Of a DNA stretch of 64,000 nt, positions 1-11,181 are shown piece by piece. This stretch comes from Auanema rhodensis (lineage: Eukaryota > Animalia > Nematoda). The stretch is taken from positions 17,484,001 through 17,548,000 of the forward strand of contig OZ059897.1 of NCBI GenBank assembly GCA_964057225.1, written 5' to 3'. How positions within the stretch are numbered: the stretch's first letter is position 1; every line of letters begins with the position of its first letter. The notes below the pieces were generated by a model, which did no database searches, was not told the origin of the DNA, and worked only from the letters and a program-made list of their open reading frames with translations. A program made the position numbers and the translations under genes.

Positions 1-472
1 ATTGCTGCAGACAATTACGTATTTGTAATATATCTGAATGACTTTTCATCAGTATTATATATGTACTATTGATTCGACTGGTCCTGTCCAGTTGAAATGC
101 CGCTTGCACAAGATTAAACACTGCCAAATTCCAGTGATGAGCCCATACTGTAAAAATGTTGTTGAGTAATTCCTTTGCTGCTTTATTCGATGAAAAAAAG
201 TTCATCAAATCATCCAGCACTAGTATAGTATTTACTCCCTTTTGTTCTTTTATCAAATCAGGATCAGGAGGCCCTTGAATAATTATTAAACGCTCATCAT
301 TTATTGGTACACCTGACGATGACCCACATTGACTAAACCAGAATATTCTATCAATGGGGACGTTGAAAAACTTTTCAGTATTTTCACATATGTGCTTTAT
401 GAGGGTTGTTTTACCGCATTGGGTAGCACCTATTACAGTTGTCTGACTGGGTAGTTTGAAGCTGAAAACCAT
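1..472 (-). CDS. Genome-packaging ATPase (A32/FtsK-HerA-like), 3'-truncated by the window edge; absent from the ORF track
   Basis: Manual translation from ATG at 472: MVFSFKLPSQTTVIGATQCGKTTLIKHI...TILVLDDLMNFF...IFTVWAHHWNLAVFNLVQAAFQLDRTSRINSTYIILMK... Walker A GATQCGKT, Walker B ILVLDD, conserved Q and R-x-N motifs; open to position 1. Confidence 0.93.
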   Translation of the reverse strand, partial: MVFSFKLPSQTTVIGATQCGKTTLIKHICENTEKFFNVPIDRIFWFSQCGSSSGVPINDERLIIIQGPPDPDLIKEQKGVNTILVLDDLMNFFSSNKAAKELLNNIFTVWAHHWNLAVFNLVQAAFQLDRTSRINSTYIILMKSHSDILQIRNCLQQ

Positions 473-551
473 AATCAACCACTCGTAAATGTACCTAAAA
501 TGCAAATGATTTCATTTGCAATAGTGTACACGTATCAAGTGGTGGTTTGTC
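473..551. promoter_or_regulatory. Putative bidirectional promoter between divergent ATPase and minor capsid genes, with a 20-bp dyad
   Basis: 79-bp gap between divergent ATGs. TGCAAATGA-TT-TCATTTGCA (501-520) is a perfect 9-bp inverted repeat. Confidence 0.45.
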
Positions 552-1409
552 ATGGATGATTTTTACATTACTCTTCCATCATCAGTTGACTCTGAAAAAA
601 GTAATACATCATCAGTGTTTCTTACCAGATTACCTGAAACACTAAGGCTACGCAATAATAGGTATTGTATTGGGCTGACAGACATCATTTTTCCTTGTTC
701 TATATTAAATGTTCAAAAAGATTTATCTTATACACTACGTTTTTCCAATAGAAAATTTATTCTACACTTGCCTAAAGGCAACTATGCAAATGGTGATGAA
801 ATAATACGCGGAATCAATGCTGGAAGAGAATCATTTATCGCCAACAATACAAAGCCTCTTGGAGCTGAGGAAGAAGCACGTATAAAAAGTTTAATAGATA
901 AAGATGAAGATGTAAAAAAATGGTATAATAATCGCCAGGCTGAGGCTAAGCTAGTGGAGGAAATGCTCGCAGATGCCACATTTCAGTTTAACAAAACATT
1001 GCAGCGCATAGAGTTTGTAACAAGCAAGCGACTATTAATGAATGCAACGCTTGGTGATGATTTTGCATATTTTCTTGGTTTTGAAAATAAAAACATCAAC
1101 GATACAATAATAGCCAGGCGTCCCATTGATTTTTCAAATAACATTAATACAATGTATATATATTGTGATATTGTAGAATATTCCATTCTTGGTAATGTGA
1201 AAGCTAATTTACTTGCATGTTTACCTGTACCACCTCCTACTGAATTTGGTAAAATGATTGCCAAAACATTTAATCCTATTCGTTATGTACCAATCACTAG
1301 ACAAACACTCGATACCATACGTATTGAAATTTTAGATGAATTTGGTCGTCCTATGCAATTTAATTATGGTTCTACAGTTGTTACATTGCATGTTAAAAAT
1401 ATGAAATAA
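552..1409 (+). CDS. Minor capsid protein (penton, single jelly-roll)
   Basis: 285 aa. N-terminal FYITLPS...FLTRLPETLRL...IGLTDIIFP and C-terminal YIYCDIVE...YVPI...IRIEILDEFGRPMQF...VVTLH are typical of Polinton minor capsid proteins; context agrees. Confidence 0.88.
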   Translation: MDDFYITLPSSVDSEKSNTSSVFLTRLPETLRLRNNRYCIGLTDIIFPCSILNVQKDLSYTLRFSNRKFILHLPKGNYANGDEIIRGINAGRESFIANNTKPLGAEEEARIKSLIDKDEDVKKWYNNRQAEAKLVEEMLADATFQFNKTLQRIEFVTSKRLLMNATLGDDFAYFLGFENKNINDTIIARRPIDFSNNINTMYIYCDIVEYSILGNVKANLLACLPVPPPTEFGKMIAKTFNPIRYVPITRQTLDTIRIEILDEFGRPMQFNYGSTVVTLHVKNMK

Positions 1410-1419
1410 ACGTTTTATT
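1404..1419. terminator. Overlapping back-to-back polyadenylation signals of convergent genes
   Basis: AATAAA-CGT-TTTATT gives AATAAA on both strands, each overlapping the stop codon of one convergent gene. The stops at 1409 and 1415 are 5 bp apart. Confidence 0.55.
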
Positions 1420-1879
1420 CAACAGTTATACAATACCACATTTTTATTTTCGAAGGTTTAAAAGATAGTTTAGGGCAGTTTTGTTTGTCGCTCGGCTCGT
1501 GTTGTGAATGTTCTCCGTCACTATTGCTGCGGCATCTTTTTGATTGGGTTGAATGTACAAACTCCTCAGCTTTTTCAAAGGGTTTGCTGGTATCATTTCC
1601 ATCACCATCTTCACCATTCGTTCCATTATTATTATGAATACGCCGAATATGACGCTCACAATTGAATCTTGTTCCAAAAGTTTCACTACAATGAGGGCAC
1701 AAACGTCTACGAACACCATCCAAATGTCCATATTTTTGAATAAAGTCAGCATTGCTGATATAATTGTTACATATGGGTTGAATCCCTGCATGTCTTTTCA
1801 AAACGTGATCACTAAAATGCTTGGTTGAAGAAAATATTTCCTTGCATGTACCACAATATTTGTTACATAAAAGTTCCAT
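1415..1879 (-). CDS. C2H2 zinc-finger protein (two fingers)
   Basis: First ATG at 1879. CGTCKEIFSSTKHFSDHVLKRH and CPHCSETFGTRFNCERHIRRIH fit C-x2-C-x3-F-x8-H-x4-H; a low-complexity polar tail follows. Confidence 0.8.
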   Translation of the reverse strand: MELLCNKYCGTCKEIFSSTKHFSDHVLKRHAGIQPICNNYISNADFIQKYGHLDGVRRRLCPHCSETFGTRFNCERHIRRIHNNNGTNGEDGDGNDTSKPFEKAEEFVHSTQSKRCRSNSDGEHSQHEPSDKQNCPKLSFKPSKIKMWYCITVE

Positions 1880-1920: not shown

Positions 1921-2091
1921 TTATATAATGAGCAATAATATGACTAGTGTTGTACAAAAGCCCAATCCCAATGCTATACCTTTAATAAATGGCACTGAAA
2001 TACATTTCAACATTCTCCTGTATAAAGGCGCTGGTTTAGATTGCTCCAACGTGTATTTGACACATAATTCACAGTGACACGGAATATTCAT
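1921..2091 (-). CDS. Possible small (56 aa) Cys-containing protein with C-terminal transmembrane helix
   Basis: ATG at 2091. MNIPCHCELC...FIKGIALGLGFCTTLVILLLII; fills the gap between two co-oriented genes. Confidence 0.45.
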   Translation of the reverse strand: MNIPCHCELCVKYTLEQSKPAPLYRRMLKCISVPFIKGIALGLGFCTTLVILLLII

Positions 2092-2639: not shown

Positions 2640-3092
2640 ATGCCACACCTCCTTTTGGATGTCAACTCTATTCAATGGACAACACTTTTAAATCAACAAA
2701 TGGGTGGCGCCCCATTTAGCGGAATGATGTTTCAACGTGGAATGCAGAGGGGTCATGGTTTGGGTGGTATTTTGGCAACTTTGGCATCATTTCTACCACG
2801 CATCATTCAATCACCTATAGCCCAAAATCTCATCAATGCCGGAAGAAACGTCTTATCCAGTGCTGTAAGCAATAGTCCAGTTGTAAATTCACCTCTTGGC
2901 GGACAGTTGCTGAAAACTGGTAATGAAATTGTCGATGGGGTGCTGAAAGGCGATAATATCAAGGAAACTCTTAAAACAGCCGGCCGACAAGCTATACGAG
3001 ATCTTACCGGTTTGGGCAAACGGCGACGACGCAAAACCACAAAACCTCATAAGCGGTTGTGCATCACTCGTGAGCGGTCGTTTCACATTTAA
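2640..3092 (+). CDS. Basic core/membrane-active virion precursor (pVII/pX-like Polinton protein)
   Basis: ATG at 2640, 150 aa. FSG...QRGHGLGGILATLASFLP amphipathic segment, Gly-rich protease-site-like motifs, Arg/Lys-rich tail GKRRRRKTTKPHKR; directly upstream of the major capsid gene. Confidence 0.75.
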   Translation: MPHLLLDVNSIQWTTLLNQQMGGAPFSGMMFQRGMQRGHGLGGILATLASFLPRIIQSPIAQNLINAGRNVLSSAVSNSPVVNSPLGGQLLKTGNEIVDGVLKGDNIKETLKTAGRQAIRDLTGLGKRRRRKTTKPHKRLCITRERSFHI

Positions 3093-4427
3093 ATGGCTAA
3101 ATTGATAGATTCAAAATCAGCACAAGCCCTTTTACCTAATATCAACTATGGTGAAATACCTGCGTCGGCATTAGGTGTTGAATCCACTCGTACTGTACAA
3201 GTCCCTTTGAAAAATACTTTTCTTCCTCAAGGACCATGGGAATTTGTTATAGCTCAAAATTCCAAATCATTCCTCAATCTGAGAAGATGTTGGTTGAATG
3301 TAAAATTTAAAATTGTAACCACAAACGGTGATCCAGTACCAGACAACCTTGTTTTTGCACCATGTCAACAATTTGCTGCCAGTTTAATACATTCGTATCA
3401 TTTGAAAATTGGCGATGTTAGCGTGTATGACTCTACCGTGAATCATGCCTATAAAACATATATCGAGAATATTTTAATGTATAGCAACGATGTTAAAGAG
3501 AGCAAACTTGCCATATCAGGCTATTATGCTGATAGATATATAGATAATGCATCCAGTGCTGGATTTAGAACGCGTCAAACGCTTGTAAAAAATGGCATAT
3601 TGTGTGAGATGGCTGCTCCCGTCAGTATCGACCTATTTAATCAAGAGCGACTGTTTGTAAACTATTCAAAAATGGAGCTAACTGCATATCCAAACCGTGA
3701 TAACTTTTTAATTGACACTCTAGGCTGGAATAATGAAAACAAGGATACTACATTAAAGGAGGAGTTTCCAAATTTGAAAGTAGATATCAGCGATGTACAT
3801 TTGCTCATTCAAGAGTTTGATCTAAACGCTGGATTAGCTATGGCTATAGAAGATAAACTCGCAAAGGATCGAATACACTACCCCATGACATCAGTGAAAA
3901 TGCGCTCTTATTTCATAGAAGGAGGCCGCTTGGATTCACCTAATAATATATTATTCACGTCTCATACACCGAAACGTGTTGTAGTAGGTCTTGTTGGCGC
4001 ACACGCTTATAATGGTACTTTTAAACATTCGCCATTCAACTTTAAACCGTTTGATTTGAAAAATATATACTTGACGCTCAACAATAGGGTAATACCTACC
4101 CGTCCTTATAATTTAGAATGGCGATCTTCCTATGCCACAGCATATATTGACATGCTCGAAGGTTTGGGACTTGGTCGTACAGATTCATCCAATGGTATTA
4201 CACCAGCAATGTATAAAGCTGGTTTCACATTTTTTGTATTTGATATTTCTCCTACTGTGCATTCGTCAGAGTTATTTGATGTTATACGACAAGGTAATGT
4301 AGCCTTGAAACTGGAATTTGGTCAACAAACGCCGCAAGAGGGCTTATATGCAATTGTTTATGCAGAGTATGACTCTATTCTTTCAATTGACAACAATCGT
4401 GCTCCATATATTGATACCAGTTTGTAA
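3093..4427 (+). CDS. Major capsid protein (double jelly-roll, hexon-like)
   Basis: 444 aa, intronless. Motifs PKRVVVGLV...AYNG...SPFNFKPFDL, GFTFFVFDISP, GNVALKLEF, IVYAEYDSILSID are typical of Polinton MCP. Confidence 0.92.
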   Translation: MAKLIDSKSAQALLPNINYGEIPASALGVESTRTVQVPLKNTFLPQGPWEFVIAQNSKSFLNLRRCWLNVKFKIVTTNGDPVPDNLVFAPCQQFAASLIHSYHLKIGDVSVYDSTVNHAYKTYIENILMYSNDVKESKLAISGYYADRYIDNASSAGFRTRQTLVKNGILCEMAAPVSIDLFNQERLFVNYSKMELTAYPNRDNFLIDTLGWNNENKDTTLKEEFPNLKVDISDVHLLIQEFDLNAGLAMAIEDKLAKDRIHYPMTSVKMRSYFIEGGRLDSPNNILFTSHTPKRVVVGLVGAHAYNGTFKHSPFNFKPFDLKNIYLTLNNRVIPTRPYNLEWRSSYATAYIDMLEGLGLGRTDSSNGITPAMYKAGFTFFVFDISPTVHSSELFDVIRQGNVALKLEFGQQTPQEGLYAIVYAEYDSILSIDNNRAPYIDTSL

Positions 4428-4562: not shown

Positions 4563-7500
4563 TTAAACACAATAACCGTAGGGTAAAGTACTATAATCTT
4601 GTAGATAACAAAGTTTATCCATTACGACTCTAGTACTTTTTGTCATATCCATTGTGGATATGGCACCGAGTTGCCTCTTTAACAAGGTTGTGTTGGTTTT
4701 TAAAACCAATTTCTCTCCATCCATAACGAGACCGCGAACCAGTCGCTCCATACTTTCAAAGTTTACCACTGACGCTGCCGTGTGGTCCAACGTCTGTAAA
4801 TTATAAAATTATTTGAAAAGTCAAAGCTCGTACTTACCACTCCCTTTGCCTTTGTTACATATTTTACATCACCAGCTGCATTTACAAGTTTATAACTATA
4901 AACTTTTGCCGCTGGTGACACAAACTTGGTCATTGACCAACCATCGGGTATTTCAGAGGTTAGTTTACCTAACCATTCACCCTTCATATCCTCAATTGGA
5001 TCTGGCTCATCCAGGCACCTTTGATAAATTAGTGAATCCGTGTCTAAATAATGTAAGTTTAAATTGAATACAAAGTATAACATTACCTGTATACACCAAA
5101 TTCTTTCCAATTTTCTCCATTGCCTTATACAATAGTAGCCTTGCATGAGCGGTTGTATAGGCCGCAATAGCTACATTTGTAAAAGGCGGTGGTGCCAAAT
5201 GTGAATCCTCTGGTACTGTTGTGCAGTACGCAACATTATCCACAATTTTGAACCCAGTGAGTTCCCTTGCAGGATCAGTAATGATCCTACCAATTTCTGG
5301 GTCCTCAACACCAATAATCTTGGTTTGGGCTTTATCAGGTCTTTGACCCATTTTACCCCAGACACTATAAGCAAATTTGTAATGTATTGTTTTAAAAAGT
5401 TTACAAACCTATTTAGCTGCAGTTTGGCAATGCTACGCATGGCAGCATTCTTCTCAATTTTATTGCTCTCCAGAGCAACACCAGTGTTCTCCTCGTGCTC
5501 TTGGAGATAAATCACCTGTAAAATTCTATTTAATGTGATACTTTTGTTAAAACATACCTTTTCTTCCTCTGTCATGTTTGGCTTTGGCCAGCCCGACGCC
5601 TCTTGTTTAATTTTGATGTACTTTTGTACAAACTCTTTAAACAGGCCGCCTTGTTGCCATTCTTCCCAGTGCCACACCTCATGCACATGAAGCACTTTAT
5701 AGCCACGTTGTATGGCACACTCGAGCTCAACATGTGTCACGGTTAGATGCAGCTTTCTAGCATTTACATCATTCTGGTGCTCACATGTTACATTTTTACT
5801 TTTGACTGCACAAGTGCGGCAGTTTGTAAAAATAAGTTTACCGCCAATACGTGTGCCTAATACAGGGTACAGCAAATTTGTGGGTGCAAGCACGTCACAT
5901 TTTACTAGCCCCTTGTATGGGCAACATGTCTCAAAGCTTTTGAAACCCTCAGTAATAACTTTGGGATTACCTACAGGGTAATAGGCATCAAAGGCTGTGA
6001 CATATGGATATAGTGAACAAAAGTCCACATACTCGAGCGAGTATCTATCCGAAGCTTGTGCCAAAAGCTTATATGTCTGGGTGCGGCCACCGGTAAAGGC
6101 ATCTCTAGGTGCCAAGCGTGTAACAACATTTGTTTCGCGCATAAATTTCGCCATTTCTTCATTGGCCGAAATTTGAGCATTAATTTCGTGCTCCCACACT
6201 GTGGTAACACTAATGCCTTGGCTTTGAATTGCTTCAAGCCTTTTCATGGTTTTATCATAAACCTAAATTTTAAAAGTTAAAATGATTAAAAAAGTCACAA
6301 TTACCTCTTCCATTGTTTCACCATTTCTGCCTGGTGCTATAGCGCTCTTGTTGGTGCACTGGGGGCAACCATGGTAAATGCAACCATTAATCTACAAAAA
6401 TTTGAATTTTTTACATTTATCACAAATTACTCACCTCATAGCCATGATTGGCAACGGGGTCATAAGCATCGAGTAGATAGCGATGACCATCTACTCTCAC
6501 TGCAAATTCACCACCATTAAGCTTATGCATTAATGGGCGGCCCAGTCCTTGTTCTAGCCATTTTATATACTTTATGGCTATTATACTCTGCTTTTGACCG
6601 GCATAATAACCAGTCTCGGGCAGAATACCCACTTGGTTCTCTTTAATATGATTCATTTTCAGCTGTAATATACTAGTTTTGAAAATGCTTGTATTTGAAA
6701 AAACTTGCCTGGAATAAAGAGAAACTGGCAAATGTCATACACTGTATGACAGGGTTCCAGCCAGTGGTGGCGGTTGCCAACTTCATGTAAACTTTCATAC
6801 AGTTGGTTAAAATACGGACATCTGTCCTACAATATTCCAAAAGCTCTTCATCAAAATCAAACGCTCTTTGATTACGCTCTTCATACCAAATATTGAATGA
6901 AGCTAGGTCTTCTGCTTTCATTCTAGCAGTACAATAGTACTGTTTTGGTGGTAAAGATGGTAACACTTTGCCATAATTTATTGGATGGTTAAAGAGGTAA
7001 GGAAACTGTCCTTTACTCATATCAGGTACACCAAATGCCTTGGGTAACGCTGATAGGGGTAAAGGCACTAATAAATAACTATCTTTAAAATATAAATGAT
7101 TAAATTTTTGACCTCTTAAAGGCTTGACAACCATGCTTATAATCTTGGTCCCATTTAAAATTGGATCAGGATATATACCACGGTTTATCAGCCTAGACAC
7201 CAAGAAATGTATGTCAAAGCGTGAACCATTATGCGCAATCAAAATTGCATTATCATTCTCAACAGAGTTGAGTAACCAATCAAGGAAACGATCTGTTACA
7301 GACCATTCACTATCACCTTGTTGATACCCAAAATGGCCCTCCTTGGTTGTGCATTTTTCACATGAGTTGGCATCTATACAACTTTCACAAAATTTATTAT
7401 ACACAACCATATTGGGCCATTGTTCATCTGCATATTCATGAACATTTGTACCGCTTTTTAACACAACCGTTTCAAAGTCATAGAATATAATCTTAAACAA

Positions 7501-9770
7501 GTAAGCATTACACTTGTAAAGATGTAAAATACAAACCTTGTATTTTTCTTGCCTCTTTTTTAACTGATCCTTCTTCTTGTCGTTAGGTGGTACCCAACAA
7601 CAAGAATGATCTTCAGGCTTTGTTTGTCCACACTTTTTGCAAAATTTCTCATTGCAATTGTGCGGTCTATCTGCACGCACCCTGTGATAATGATCACAGT
7701 TTTCACATGTCTGAATTTAGTCTTGTAAAATTTTATATATATTTTTTAAATTACCTTAAACATTCGACATGTTTTTCTAATATGCCTGTCAAAGCATTGA
7801 CGAGTTTTAAACAAAACTCTACAACTATCACATCTTATGCTACTTTCAACCACATTTTCCATCGAATTACATTTTAAGGTGTGGCATTTCTTACACTTGG
7901 CTTTACATCTATGCAACACTGTTTTGTAAGATAATTTACAGTGTTGGCATATAATACCATCAAAAATCTGTGATCTACTACAAGTTGTAATACAGTCATA
8001 ATGATTATTTCGGTAGCCTAGTGTTACCACTTTGCTAGCCGTTTCATTAAAGATACGCTGAATAGCGTACATACGCTGTCCAGGTGGCCTAGCGTATACC
8101 ACAAACTTATAGTCTGTATTACAACTTGCAATAATATTTAAATGGTTCAAATTATAATTTGGTAAATGTACAGAAATACCACACCTATTCAATAAATTGA
8201 TATGATGTGGTTGATTTGGCAACAAGATGTAGTTGCGACGAAGATTTTGAATCCTCCGCTTCTCAACAACATCTTCTGCTGCCTCTTCATCGGCTCTCCA
8301 CATTCCCACAACTGCTGCTCTAGCCAGGCAATGTGTATCAGTGTTCTCAATTGTGCCAGGTATTTTGAGTTCGGCATCAAAATAGAAACCAACTCTACCT
8401 TCACCAGGCATCAGGCTTGGCTGCACTGGTCTCTCATCAAACACATACATTTCAATATTCATTGCCTGGCTAATTACAGCCTCTCGCTTTGACTGCTGCA
8501 CCTTGCTGATGGCATTCATGATGGCAACGCCATCCAAATGCTCCCTTCTACGGAAATCCATAAATATGGATCCCTTTTCAAAGGATGGGTGCTCTATTGA
8601 TAAACAAAATAGTGCTTTTTGTTTATCTGGCACACCACTTTCAGCAAGGCACCGATCAAGAAACTCATTAAATAACCGCGGCATGACAACATGCATTGGC
8701 TCATTAATGGCTTCCAAATGTGGGAACGTGAGCGATCTAACGACCACGTTGGTGAACCGACCAGTGCGTTTTATGCGTCGGTGTGACCACTATAATACAC
8801 ACTTTTTATAATGGTTATACGCTTTTAGTTTAAATATAAATAATTTTTGTTTATAACTTTTTATAAATTTACTTTTCTTTAAATTATTTTTATTAATGTT
8901 TAAAAATAAATGGCATTTGATTTTTAAATATAAAGTTTTTTTTTTTCAACTTTGAAAAAACTTTTATAAACATTTGTTAATGTTAAAAAATAAATGAAAA
9001 GGTCAAGATTGTGTTTTATTATTTTACTAGTTCAAAATGTTTGAAATATTTATAATTTGTAAGAATTCAAAATTGGTTGAAAGAAAGATAGATGAGGAAA
9101 GATAGATAGATAGTGAGATGAAATGTAAAGATTTTAAAATGAATGCTGTTCAAAAGAATGAATATGTAAATTTCAAAATACTTGCAATTTGCTTGATAAA
9201 AGATATAGATTGAGATGAAATGTAAAGATGAGAGAGAGAGCAATTGAAAAAGAGAAATAAATTTCAAAATGTTTTCAAAATATGCAACTGGAGCAAGAGA
9301 AAATTTCATGTTTCAAAAGATATATTATGAAATGATATGTAAATAAAAGATCGCACCTCTATTTTACAGACATCGTTGAATGCCGCTCCATATCCGACTT
9401 GTCCTCCACTGGTTGATGGGGTAGCAGGATCCCATTCGCTTAAAAAGAAAAAAAACTAAATGTTATAATTTTAATATCGCTTACTCATCACTGTCATCCA
9501 AGGTTATTACTTCAATAACCCTTGATGATGAGGGCCCACTGTTAAAAGTGGGTGATGTGGGCTCACAGAGCTCGATCCCACCAGCCTCGGTAAACTTTAT
9601 ACGTTTACTAAAAAACAAAATATATATAAAGATTCAAAATATTGTTAAATTACCTGAGCTGATTGATTTCTTCATAATCAAATCCTAGCTCTTCACATAA
9701 ACGTTTATAACTAAAAAAAGAAAAAGTTTACAAACAAATAATCAAAAAGACACAACCTATTAGCAGCCAT
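4563..9770 (-). CDS. polB: Protein-primed family B DNA polymerase polyprotein (terminal protein-like, vOTU-like, Zn-finger, exonuclease, VSR-like insert, polymerase); 14 exons, 1369 aa
   Basis: Exons (minus): 9770-9757, 9710-9654, 9607-9485, 9438-9357, 8789-7755, 7710-7537, 7491-6709, 6662-6435, 6391-6305, 6262-5558, 5515-5409, 5364-5087, 5043-4838, 4793-4563. They total 4110 nt and all phases are consistent. ExoI YDFET, ExoII AHNGSRFD, ExoIII YCRTDV, motif A DFCSLYP. Splicing restores motif B KLQLNS/VWGK, motif C YT/DTDS and KAKGV/TLD. The four 5'-most exons are less certain than the core. Confidence 0.93.
6663..6708 (-). other. GC-AG spliceosomal intron (46 nt) in polB
   Basis: Donor CAG|GCAAGT, acceptor TTACAG|CTG. 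Removal joins ...FASFSLFQ to LKMNHIKENQ... in frame. Confidence 0.8.
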
Positions 9771-10169
9771 TGTACCTTGATATAATGAATACATCAGTCT
9801 ACACATTGCTGTTGGCATTGTAATTTGTTATGTAACATGGATTTGGGTACAGCTGTCAAAACTAGCAGTTGCGATAAACTTTAAAATAAATAAGCTTATT
9901 GAATACATCTGTTTTTATTGTCCCCGTCGGATTAATTTTTGTTATTAGTTCTTATTAAATTAACTTTATGCGTTTCATTGAGGTCAGCGCAACTGTTTGT
10001 TAATCTTATTGTATTTACCTTCATTGTGTGCTCTATAGAGTTATTGTATTGTTATATTAGTAAAATAAAGTTTAAAACTAATCTTTTATTATAATTTGAA
10101 ACCTTTACTTGTTAGAATAAATATAATTAATAACAATTTGTAATTTCAAAAATTAATAATTTAATGTCA

Positions 10170-10321
10170 TTCTTATCGAATTAACCTTCGATATGTGTTC
10201 CATTGAATTTTGGTATTTCATATCGTTCTTATCGAATTAACTTTCGATATGTGTTCCATTAAATTTTGGTATTTCATATCGTTCTTATCGAATTAACTTT
10301 CGATATGTGTTCCATTGAATT
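10170..10321. repeat. 56-bp tandem repeat, ~2.7 copies, each with a TATCGAA-N6-TTCGATA dyad
   Basis: Units start at 10170, 10226 and 10282 and are near-identical. Confidence 0.92.
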
Positions 10322-10391
10322 ACCCATAACAAGTACGGTGAACAAAATTATCTACATGCAAAAATTTTATTGATCTTTAAAAATACAAATC

Positions 10392-10943
10392 AAGTAAACA
10401 AACATTATTAATAAATATAATAAAGAAATAAAGAAATAAATAAAATTTAAAAACAAATTTATATATTTAAAATTTAAATATTATTTATATATAAAATTTA
10501 AAGTTTAAATATAATTTATATATATAAAATTTAAATATAATTTAAATATTTAAAGTTTAAATAAAATTTATATATATATATATAAAATTTAAATATAATT
10601 TAAATATTTAAAATTAAGATTTTTATTTTTACTTAATATATTTAAAAATAATTGAAAATATATACATACATTTGAAAAAGCATATTTAAATAAAATTAAC
10701 AAAATAAGTAAACAAACATTATTAATAAATATAATAAATAAATAAATAAAATGTATAAACAAATTTACATATTTAAATATAATTTATATATATAAAATTT
10801 AAATATAATTTAAATATATAAAGTTTAAATATAATTTATATATATATAAAATTTAAATATAATTTAAATATTTAAAATTAAGATTTTTATTTTTACTTAA
10901 TATATTTAAAAATAATTAAAAATATATACATACATTTGAAAAA
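10392..10943. repeat. Extremely AT-rich imperfect direct duplication
   Basis: AAGTAAACAAACATTATTAATAAATATAATAAA starts at 10392 and 10706. Both copies end in ...AAGATTTTTATTTTTACTTAATATATTTAAAAATAATT(G/A)AAAATATATACATACATTTGAAAAA (~10679, ~10943). Confidence 0.85.
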
Positions 10944-11029
10944 ACAAATTTAAAATTTGATTTAAAAAAAAATCATGCTTTAAATCATGATTTTTAAATT
11001 TAAAAAAGGAAAATCCATGAACCATGATC

Positions 11030-11152
11030 CCAAAATATGATTTTAACAGCTGACGCTCAAAAATATGTTTTTGACAGCTGACGCGCCCCAAAAGTATGTT
11101 TTTAGCAGCTGACGCCCCCAAAAGTATGTTTTTGACAGCTGTTTGGGGGCGT
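11030..11152. repeat. Subterminal ~30-bp repeats (4 copies) with CAGCTG core, probably part of the terminal inverted repeat
   Basis: CAAAA(G)TATGTTTTTGACAGCTGACGC(CCC)-like unit; CAGCTG at 11047, 11075, 11106, 11136. Confidence 0.88.
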
Positions 11153-11181
11153 GGTTAGTAAATTTTGCACGGCTCTCTACT
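11153..11181 (-). repeat. Outer tip of Maverick terminal inverted repeat (5'-AGTAGAGAGCCGTGC...)
   Basis: AG-initiated AGT/AG short-repeat terminus exactly where unique sequence ends. The partner TIR is outside the window, so TIR length cannot be determined. Confidence 0.75.

What the first reader, a model, noticed from the sequence alone, without database searches (positions are those of the whole stretch)
4563..9770. Viral-type DNA polymerase split by 13 spliceosomal introns yet fully intact, while the virion genes look intronless
Seen: what the ORF track shows as fragments splices into one 1369-aa ORF. There are 12 introns of 42-46 nt (4794-4837, 5044-5086, 5365-5408, 5516-5557, 6263-6304, 6392-6434, 6663-6708, 7492-7536, 7711-7754, 9439-9484, 9608-9653, 9711-9756) and one of 567 nt (8790-9356). 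Two introns interrupt catalytic motifs B and C. MCP, minor capsid, protease, core and the visible ATPase need no introns. Inference: an early/late split in which the replication gene mimics host gene architecture, possibly to be licensed for germline expression or to evade silencing, while the late genes do not.
Basis: partly seen in the sequence, partly recalled or inferred. Interest (0 to 1): 0.8.

Follow-up and report, generated by a model that had tools for sequence, protein, structure and literature searches.

The report
Maverick polymerase gene with 13 introns
A virus-like element (Maverick/Polinton) in what is likely a nematode genome has its DNA polymerase gene cut by 13 host-type introns while its capsid genes have none, and unrelated elements carry introns in the same catalytic motifs, which likely reflects targeted intron gain or retention rather than an early/late switch.

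Summary
Observation confirmed. All 13 introns lie where stated (12 GT-AG, 1 GC-AG) and leave 1369 stop-free codons. A blind spliced alignment built only from intronless homologues recovers 9 of 9 introns in the alignable part. Contigs of a putative RNA run skip 3 of the 13 exactly; none of 5 DNA runs does. Listed exon variants are mostly synonymous (34 of 44). MCP, minor capsid, protease and the visible ATPase show no intron. Relatives at 56-64% identity share introns 6, 7 and 10, so they are old. The early/late reading is untested and weakened: in two other elements polB is spliced but the integrase is not. The stronger signal is site bias: introns in distant pPolBs pile up in the same few motifs at different bases (7 of 10 events near this gene's sites; 21 of 59 ORF breaks in motif B), a pattern known for inteins and group I introns, not spliceosomal ones. 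Published animal Mavericks are called intronless; this scan has noted intron-rich Polintons before on other DNA (29 notes, at least 6 genomes).

The parts
4563..9770 (-). protein-primed DNA polymerase B gene, 14 exons, 1369 codons; low-complexity N-terminus, TP/vOTU-like region, exonuclease, VSR-like insertion, palm motifs A-C
   Evidence: (PF03175 in exons 7 and 10); vOTU/VSR labels from visible motifs and PMC11161782 / PMC10748475
9711..9756 (-). intron 1, 46 nt, phase 2
   Evidence: internal features only
9608..9653 (-). intron 2, 46 nt, phase 2
   Evidence: internal features only
9439..9484 (-). intron 3, 46 nt, phase 2
   Evidence: indels at 9454, 9468 in run X1
8790..9356 (-). intron 4, 567 nt, phase 0
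   Evidence: indels at 8935, 9239
7711..7754 (-). intron 5, 44 nt, phase 0
   Evidence: indels 7735, 7747
7492..7536 (-). intron 6, 45 nt, phase 0, in frame, just before Exo I; shared with P0042
6663..6708 (-). intron 7, 46 nt, GC-AG, phase 0; same site in P0042 with a GT-type start
6392..6434 (-). intron 8, 43 nt, phase 0, in the VSR-like motif
   Evidence: X12 loose end
6263..6304 (-). intron 9, 42 nt, phase 0, in frame
   Evidence: indel 6287
5516..5557 (-). intron 10, 42 nt, phase 0; shared with P0044, P0091
   Evidence: skipped in X13
5365..5408 (-). intron 11, 44 nt, phase 2, in polymerase motif B; same site in L059
   Evidence: skipped in X13
5044..5086 (-). intron 12, 43 nt, phase 1, in polymerase motif C
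   Evidence: P0076 breaks at the same column
4794..4837 (-). intron 13, 44 nt, phase 0, after the KxKG motif
   Evidence: skipped in X13
3093..4427 (+). double jelly-roll major capsid protein, 444 aa, one ORF
   Evidence: fold matches Sputnik/PBCV-1/mavirus MCP, E 3e-15
2640..3092 (+). basic 150-aa ORF abutting MCP ('core', label unverified)
   Evidence: only E 0.03 to an ORF beside the MCP of L030
2133..2588 (-). adenain-like protease, 151 aa, one ORF
   Evidence: (PF00770 E 0.0013, below cut-off)
1921..2091 (-). small 56-aa ORF with hydrophobic end, unknown
1415..1879 (-). C2H2 zinc-finger ORF, one ORF
   Evidence: ungapped X12 contigs
552..1409 (+). probable minor capsid (penton) protein, 285 aa, one ORF
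   Evidence: (E 1e-6 to ORFs of the capsid module of L004/L007)
2..472 (-). packaging ATPase, cut by the window start
   Evidence: (E 3e-15 to L009 ATPase)
10169..11181 (.). terminal region with short tandem and AT-rich palindromic repeats; element end reads 5'-AGTAGAGAG on the minus strand
   Evidence: compare (AGT)2 and (AG)3 end motifs, PMC8097293
11182..64000 (.). 351-bp satellite array (about 150 copies) that the element end abuts

Best explanation
This is an integrated Maverick/Polinton whose polymerase gene carries 13 short GT/GC-AG introns (three of them skipped in contigs of a putative RNA run) and whose capsid genes carry none; the introns are likely removed by the host spliceosome, likely old and inherited with the element, and likely pile up in polB because its conserved catalytic motifs gain or keep introns far more readily than other sites. 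Shown: intron positions, open frame, synonymous excess, sharing of introns 6, 7, 10 with relatives, clustering of introns of distant pPolBs in motif B and the VSR-like motif. Inferred: the provirus is transcribed in the nucleus by host Pol II; introns enter at AG|G proto-splice sites and take on host size; inside an invariant motif only exact loss is tolerated, and conserved flanks let an intron pass between co-resident elements by recombination, so polB, the longest and best conserved gene, accumulates them while short, fast-evolving, highly expressed capsid genes mostly stay clean.
For: introns real; 34 of 44 listed exon variants synonymous, expected share 0.27; shared introns in 56-64% relatives, with diverged intron bodies; 9 of 80 metagenome loci with convincing introns, at profile columns 670, 675, 774, 780, 962, 964, 965, 599, 1077; 7 of 10 events within 7 codons of this gene's 9 mapped sites, expected 1.5-1.8, p 1-3e-4 even among conserved columns; 21 of 59 ORF ends between columns 930 and 1149 fall in columns 960-969, p 6e-14; 7 end in LN-R, the read-out of a phase-2 donor at the site of intron 11; intron label needs at least 5 changes on starred branches; L004, L009: only polB interrupted; AG before 11 of 13 donors. 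PMC2814812 (passages) gives the exact-loss argument for inteins and group I introns.
Against: Within this gene the bias to conserved columns is modest (p 0.02-0.09) and 4 of 13 introns lie in the unconserved N-terminus. Introns in homologues are easier to see in conserved flanks, and I chose 15 of 35 aligner calls by eye. The protein-end signal has no DNA behind it. The LN-R label is forced to only 2 changes by starred branches, so one old intron with many losses is not excluded. PMC2814812 found no such bias for spliceosomal introns of cellular genes. No transfer of an intron between elements was shown.
Confidence: 0.45

Rival explanations
1. Early/late or latency programme: polB is expressed from the provirus and needs host-like architecture to escape silencing or be licensed in the germ line; virion genes are expressed late from amplified templates and stay intronless.
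For: 13:0 asymmetry; polB-only introns in L004 and L009; intron size and signals look host-adapted; punuivirus latency genes are intron-enriched against virion genes (10.64898/2026.10.09.758095, passages); chlorovirus polB has a spliceosomal intron (PMC7019647, passages).
Against: Integrases of L004 and L009 and the zinc-finger ORF here are single ORFs; capsid-module and polB sequence are in the same RNA? run; mirusvirus introns are enriched in virion genes (PMC12768974); unchecked scan notes report spliced capsid genes; it does not explain motif targeting; no viral RNA polymerase is visible that would separate late transcription.
Confidence: 0.25
2. Nuclease-driven homing: the introns descend from, or are spread like, spliceosomal homing introns; an intron in a conserved motif destroys a cut site, so intron-bearing polB alleles convert intron-free ones when elements share a nucleus, with a nuclease acting in trans (perhaps the polymerase's own VSR-like domain).
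For: Different bases of the same motifs are hit in distant lineages, the signature of homing elements (PMC2814812); spliceosomal introns with HNH, GIY-YIG and VSR-like nucleases exist in mirusviruses (PMC12768974 section 9); two subfamilies co-occur in every DNA run laid.
Against: No intron here can encode a nuclease (42-46 nt; the 567-nt one holds only a low-complexity 80-aa frame); none of the 15 introns kept in other loci exceeds 269 nt; no sign of recent conversion: relatives share positions but not intron sequence.
Confidence: 0.15
3. An intron-rich ancestral Maverick polB with repeated loss; today's positions are survivors, shifted by sliding.
For: The motif-B phase-2 site occurs here, in L059 and probably in 7 scattered proteins; column 670 phase 1 occurs in two separate clades; trees are poorly resolved.
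Against: 8 of this gene's 9 mapped sites are empty in all 41-78 loci that cover them; neighbouring positions differ by 5-22 nt, more than usual sliding (recalled); most relatives are intronless.
Confidence: 0.1
4. Domesticated host gene or decaying fossil whose 'introns' are chance insertions.
For: Sits in satellite DNA; a few minor DNA contigs carry internal deletions.
Against: Exact blind recovery, RNA joints, synonymous excess in polB and in capsid-module genes (9 of 12), complete capsid module, element-type terminus, two subfamilies.
Confidence: 0.03

Closest known systems
Nematode Mavericks/Polintons (10.1101/2022.07.12.499685; PMC10748475; passages)
   Same: pPolB, ATPase, protease, major and minor capsid; the best named polB hits are Caenorhabditis angaria, C. 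brenneri and Steinernema proteins (43-45%), which group with this one at local support 87-88
   Different: Core genes there are described as intronless, with introns only in cargo genes; here polB has 13
Vertebrate Mavericks (PMC8097293; passages)
   Same: gene set, AG/AGT-type end motif, purifying selection
   Different: [quoted passage not shown]
Chlorovirus DNA polymerase intron (PMC7019647; passages)
   Same: spliceosomal intron in a viral B-family polymerase gene
   Different: one intron, lytic giant virus, RNA-primed polymerase
Punuivirus latency genes (10.64898/2026.10.09.758095; passages)
   Same: endogenous virus with introns outside the virion genes
   Different: giant virus with expression data and its own late promoter; here no timing data and a motif bias
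Mirusvirus spliceosomal and homing introns (PMC12768974; passages, section 9)
   Same: intron-rich nuclear DNA virus genes, gene-specific targeting
   Different: introns enriched in virion genes, some encode nucleases; none here does
Introners in dinoflagellate eupolintoviruses (PMC12166617; passages)
   Same: spliceosomal introns inside Polinton-type elements
   Different: there transposon-derived, mostly gained after integration; here the 12 short introns are no more alike than shuffles and are inherited under selection

Membership tests
Maverick/Polinton | [quoted passage not shown] | tested here: met
   PF03175 E 6e-23 and 5e-16; motifs in exons
Maverick/Polinton | double jelly-roll major capsid protein | tested here: met
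   model pLDDT 76, Foldseek E 3e-15 to Sputnik MCP
Maverick/Polinton | packaging ATPase, adenain-like protease, minor capsid | tested here: met
   ATPase cut by window, minor capsid by weak similarity and position only
Maverick/Polinton | retroviral-like integrase | not testable with these tools
   left part of the element is outside the window; no genome held
Maverick/Polinton | [quoted passage not shown] | tested here: inconclusive
   one end only, 5'-AGTAGAGAG at 11181
Maverick/Polinton as described in print | intronless core genes (a described trait, not a defining one) | tested here: not met
   13 introns in polB
U2-type spliceosomal intron | GT/GC-AG ends, T-rich acceptor, frame restored | tested here: met
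   13 of 13
U2-type spliceosomal intron | removed in RNA, present in DNA | tested here: met
   3 of 13 exact joints in RNA? run X13, a 4th from a loose end; 0 in 5 DNA runs; 9 without cover; the run type is a guess
Introner | many near-identical intron sequences | tested here: not met
   pair scores equal to shuffles, mean 13.7 vs 13.3
Spliceosomal homing intron (shintron) | nuclease ORF inside the intron | tested here: not met
   42-46 nt; no plausible ORF in the 567-nt intron (not searched against families)
Early/late (latency) programme | spliced and unspliced genes expressed at different times | not testable with these tools
   only assembled contigs, no raw reads

The most novel reading that the evidence does not exclude
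Spliceosomal introns in Maverick polymerases behave like inteins or group I introns: they are driven into catalytic motifs again and again across the family, by nuclease-assisted conversion between co-resident elements, and a large intron-bearing part of Maverick diversity is filed as 'degraded' because intactness is scored on intronless ORFs.
Probability: 0.2. Interest if true: 0.85.

Novelty: new variant of a known kind. Interest (0 to 1): 0.62.

Why it matters
Animal Mavericks are described as intronless and are scored as intact only if their ORFs are unbroken, so spliced lineages are missed or counted as fossils: 21 of 59 broken pPolB ORFs in the hit list stop in one 10-codon motif. Splicing ties their transcription to the host nucleus and may limit host range to hosts that read 42-46-nt introns. 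A spliceosomal-intron hot spot in catalytic motifs is unexpected and gives a compact, multi-lineage system in which intron gain and retention can be tested.

Tried and rejected
No whole genome held, so host intron sizes, copy number, left end and integrase could not be checked. MCP-based scans found no related locus in viral contigs or metagenomes; a polB scan of viral contigs was empty. No RNA holder is on record; X12-X14 are guessed RNA from one study, and lack of cover at 9 junctions is no evidence. Organisms A-E show the same variants and two subfamilies, so I do not read them as five hosts or as horizontal transfer. The 39-nt call at 8185-8223 was rejected. 20 of 35 frame- or stop-requiring aligner calls in other loci were dropped as GC-rich or weak-donor calls in degraded copies; L063's intron (GC 0.50) was kept for its donor and position. 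The 'stop' variant at 5023 shares a codon with 5022 and is not a real stop. Introner origin rejected. One 45-nt GT-AG stretch in the protease ORF passes a crude filter but the aligner does not use it. No sequence hit for MCP in PDB. Protein atlas unreachable. PMC1450207 and PMC11426020 not held. No fold of the whole polymerase was made.
Full report
Setting. The first 11.2 kb of the window hold the right part of a Maverick/Polinton; the rest is a 351-bp satellite. Genes from the window start: packaging ATPase (cut), probable minor capsid, a zinc-finger ORF, a small ORF, protease, a basic ORF, major capsid, polymerase, then a repeat-rich terminal region ending 5'-AGTAGAGAG at 11181. The MCP folds as a double jelly roll. 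No genome is held. In the deeper tree, which lacks those proteins, the window is an unplaced long branch.

Are the introns real? Yes. All 13 have GT or GC and AG ends at the stated bases, are AT-rich, and leave 1369 stop-free codons. A spliced aligner whose profile came only from 29 unbroken homologues found introns 5-13 exactly, with one extra call that I reject. Two low-depth contigs of putative RNA run X13 skip introns 10, 11 and 13 exactly, and a loose end in X12 implies intron 8 in a diverged copy; five DNA runs show no such joint. The RNA label is the tool's guess and the three such runs come from one study. Introns 1-4 lack homology and RNA support but three are 46 nt and the listed indels fall in them. 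Of 8 distinct listed indels in the gene, 7 are in introns and 1 at the last codon (16 more rows not shown). Of 53 listed substitutions (best-supported rows only; over 500 per call not shown), 44 are exonic: 34 synonymous, 9 non-synonymous, 1 scoring artefact; expected synonymous share 0.27. Each DNA run holds two subfamilies, about 99% and 86-88% alike, with the same variants under five organism labels, probably one host.

Age. P0042 (64% identical) reads through a 15-codon intron at the site of intron 6 and runs into intron 7; the intron bodies are unrelated in sequence. P0044 and P0091 (56-57%) break at intron 10. The introns are therefore inherited within the element lineage. The 12 short introns are no more alike than shuffles, so no introner burst.

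Asymmetry. The aligner finds no intron in MCP, minor capsid, protease or the visible ATPase; 13:0 has p 3e-4 by length. Among 80 metagenome loci (best 80 of 185; ranking favours intronless genes, many from one sample), 9 carry convincing polB introns (15 of 35 frame- or stop-requiring calls kept by eye). In two near-complete ones (L004, L009) polB has one intron while MCP, ATPase, protease and integrase are single ORFs. So 'polB first' recurs, but 'early genes spliced' does not hold for the integrase there. Unchecked notes of this scan describe both capsid-spared and capsid-spliced Polintons.

Site bias. Prompted by note e1-8586750 I mapped positions. Collapsed to 10 events, 7 lie within 7 codons of one of this gene's 9 mapped introns (expected 1.5-1.8; p 1-3e-4; 6 of 9, p 0.001-0.002, if column 670 is counted once). 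They hit the VSR-like motif (columns 668, 670, 675) and motif B (962, 964, 965) at different bases. Independently, of the 150 best protein hits 74 end before column 1150, 59 between 930 and 1149, and 21 of these 59 in columns 960-969 (p 6e-14; interval suggested by the earlier data); 7 end in LN-R, as a phase-2 donor at the site of intron 11 would read, and P0076 breaks at the site of intron 12. No DNA was seen for these proteins. The intron label needs at least 5 changes on starred branches of a 58-row tree (41 of 80 loci picked, one left out; quick search), but the LN-R label is forced to only 2. Inside this gene the bias to conserved columns is modest (p 0.02-0.09).

How it likely works. 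The provirus is transcribed in the nucleus and spliced by the host (shown for 3-4 junctions, inferred for the rest). Introns entered at proto-splice sites (AG before 11 of 13 donors) and persist where loss must be exact and where conserved flanks allow exchange between co-resident elements (inferred; 0.45). Rivals: latency or early/late licensing (0.25), nuclease-driven homing (0.15), intron-rich ancestor with loss (0.10), fossil or domesticated gene (0.03).

What is known. [quoted passage not shown] Searches listed no paper on spliceosomal introns in animal Maverick polymerases; the library lacks most subscription papers and Repbase, two key papers were not held, and no supplements were read, where such gene models may exist. 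This scan has noted intron-split Polinton genes before in at least 6 other genomes (29 notes); none resembles this sequence.

Verdict. A real, well-supported new variant of a known kind: an intact-frame Maverick polB with 13 host-type introns and intron-free virion genes. Interest 0.62.

Noticed in passing
window 11181/11182-64000: The element end abuts a homogeneous 351-bp satellite array (about 150 copies, 97-99% alike); an earlier scan note (e1-7499233) also has an intron-rich Polinton in satellite DNA.
   Followed up: partly
window 6544-6588 (run X12, table 7): A contig of a diverged copy appears to lack about 45 nt in frame inside exon 8: a cryptic splice or a deletion; another contig of a diverged copy has intron 8 removed but keeps a shorter intron 9.
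   Followed up: no
window 473-551 and 2589-2639: Two divergent gene pairs share only 79 and 51 bp; both gaps hold TAGTGTA. A T-rich AG 22 nt upstream of the ATPase start and an AG 6 nt upstream of the polB start could be trans-splice or UTR-intron acceptors.
   Followed up: no
window 3087-3095: The 'core' stop codon abuts the MCP start codon directly (TAAATG); how MCP is translated is unexplained.
   Followed up: no
window 9485-9520: The unconserved N-terminal exons encode a VIEVITLDDSD stretch that resembles a SUMO-interacting motif (label recalled).
   Followed up: no
P0045, P0047, P0049, P0050: Caenorhabditis and Steinernema pPolBs carry the same VSR-like ExxGCxxHGC motif, although PMC10748475 reports VSR only in a marine nematode pPolB2; class assignment left open.
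   Followed up: partly
L009:14151-15227: A Polinton accessory ORF fuses a CARD domain to PC4 domains.
   Followed up: no
P0106, P0091: Close relatives seem to break inside what is exon 10 here (about columns 754 and 807), hinting at intron turnover in the clade.
   Followed up: no
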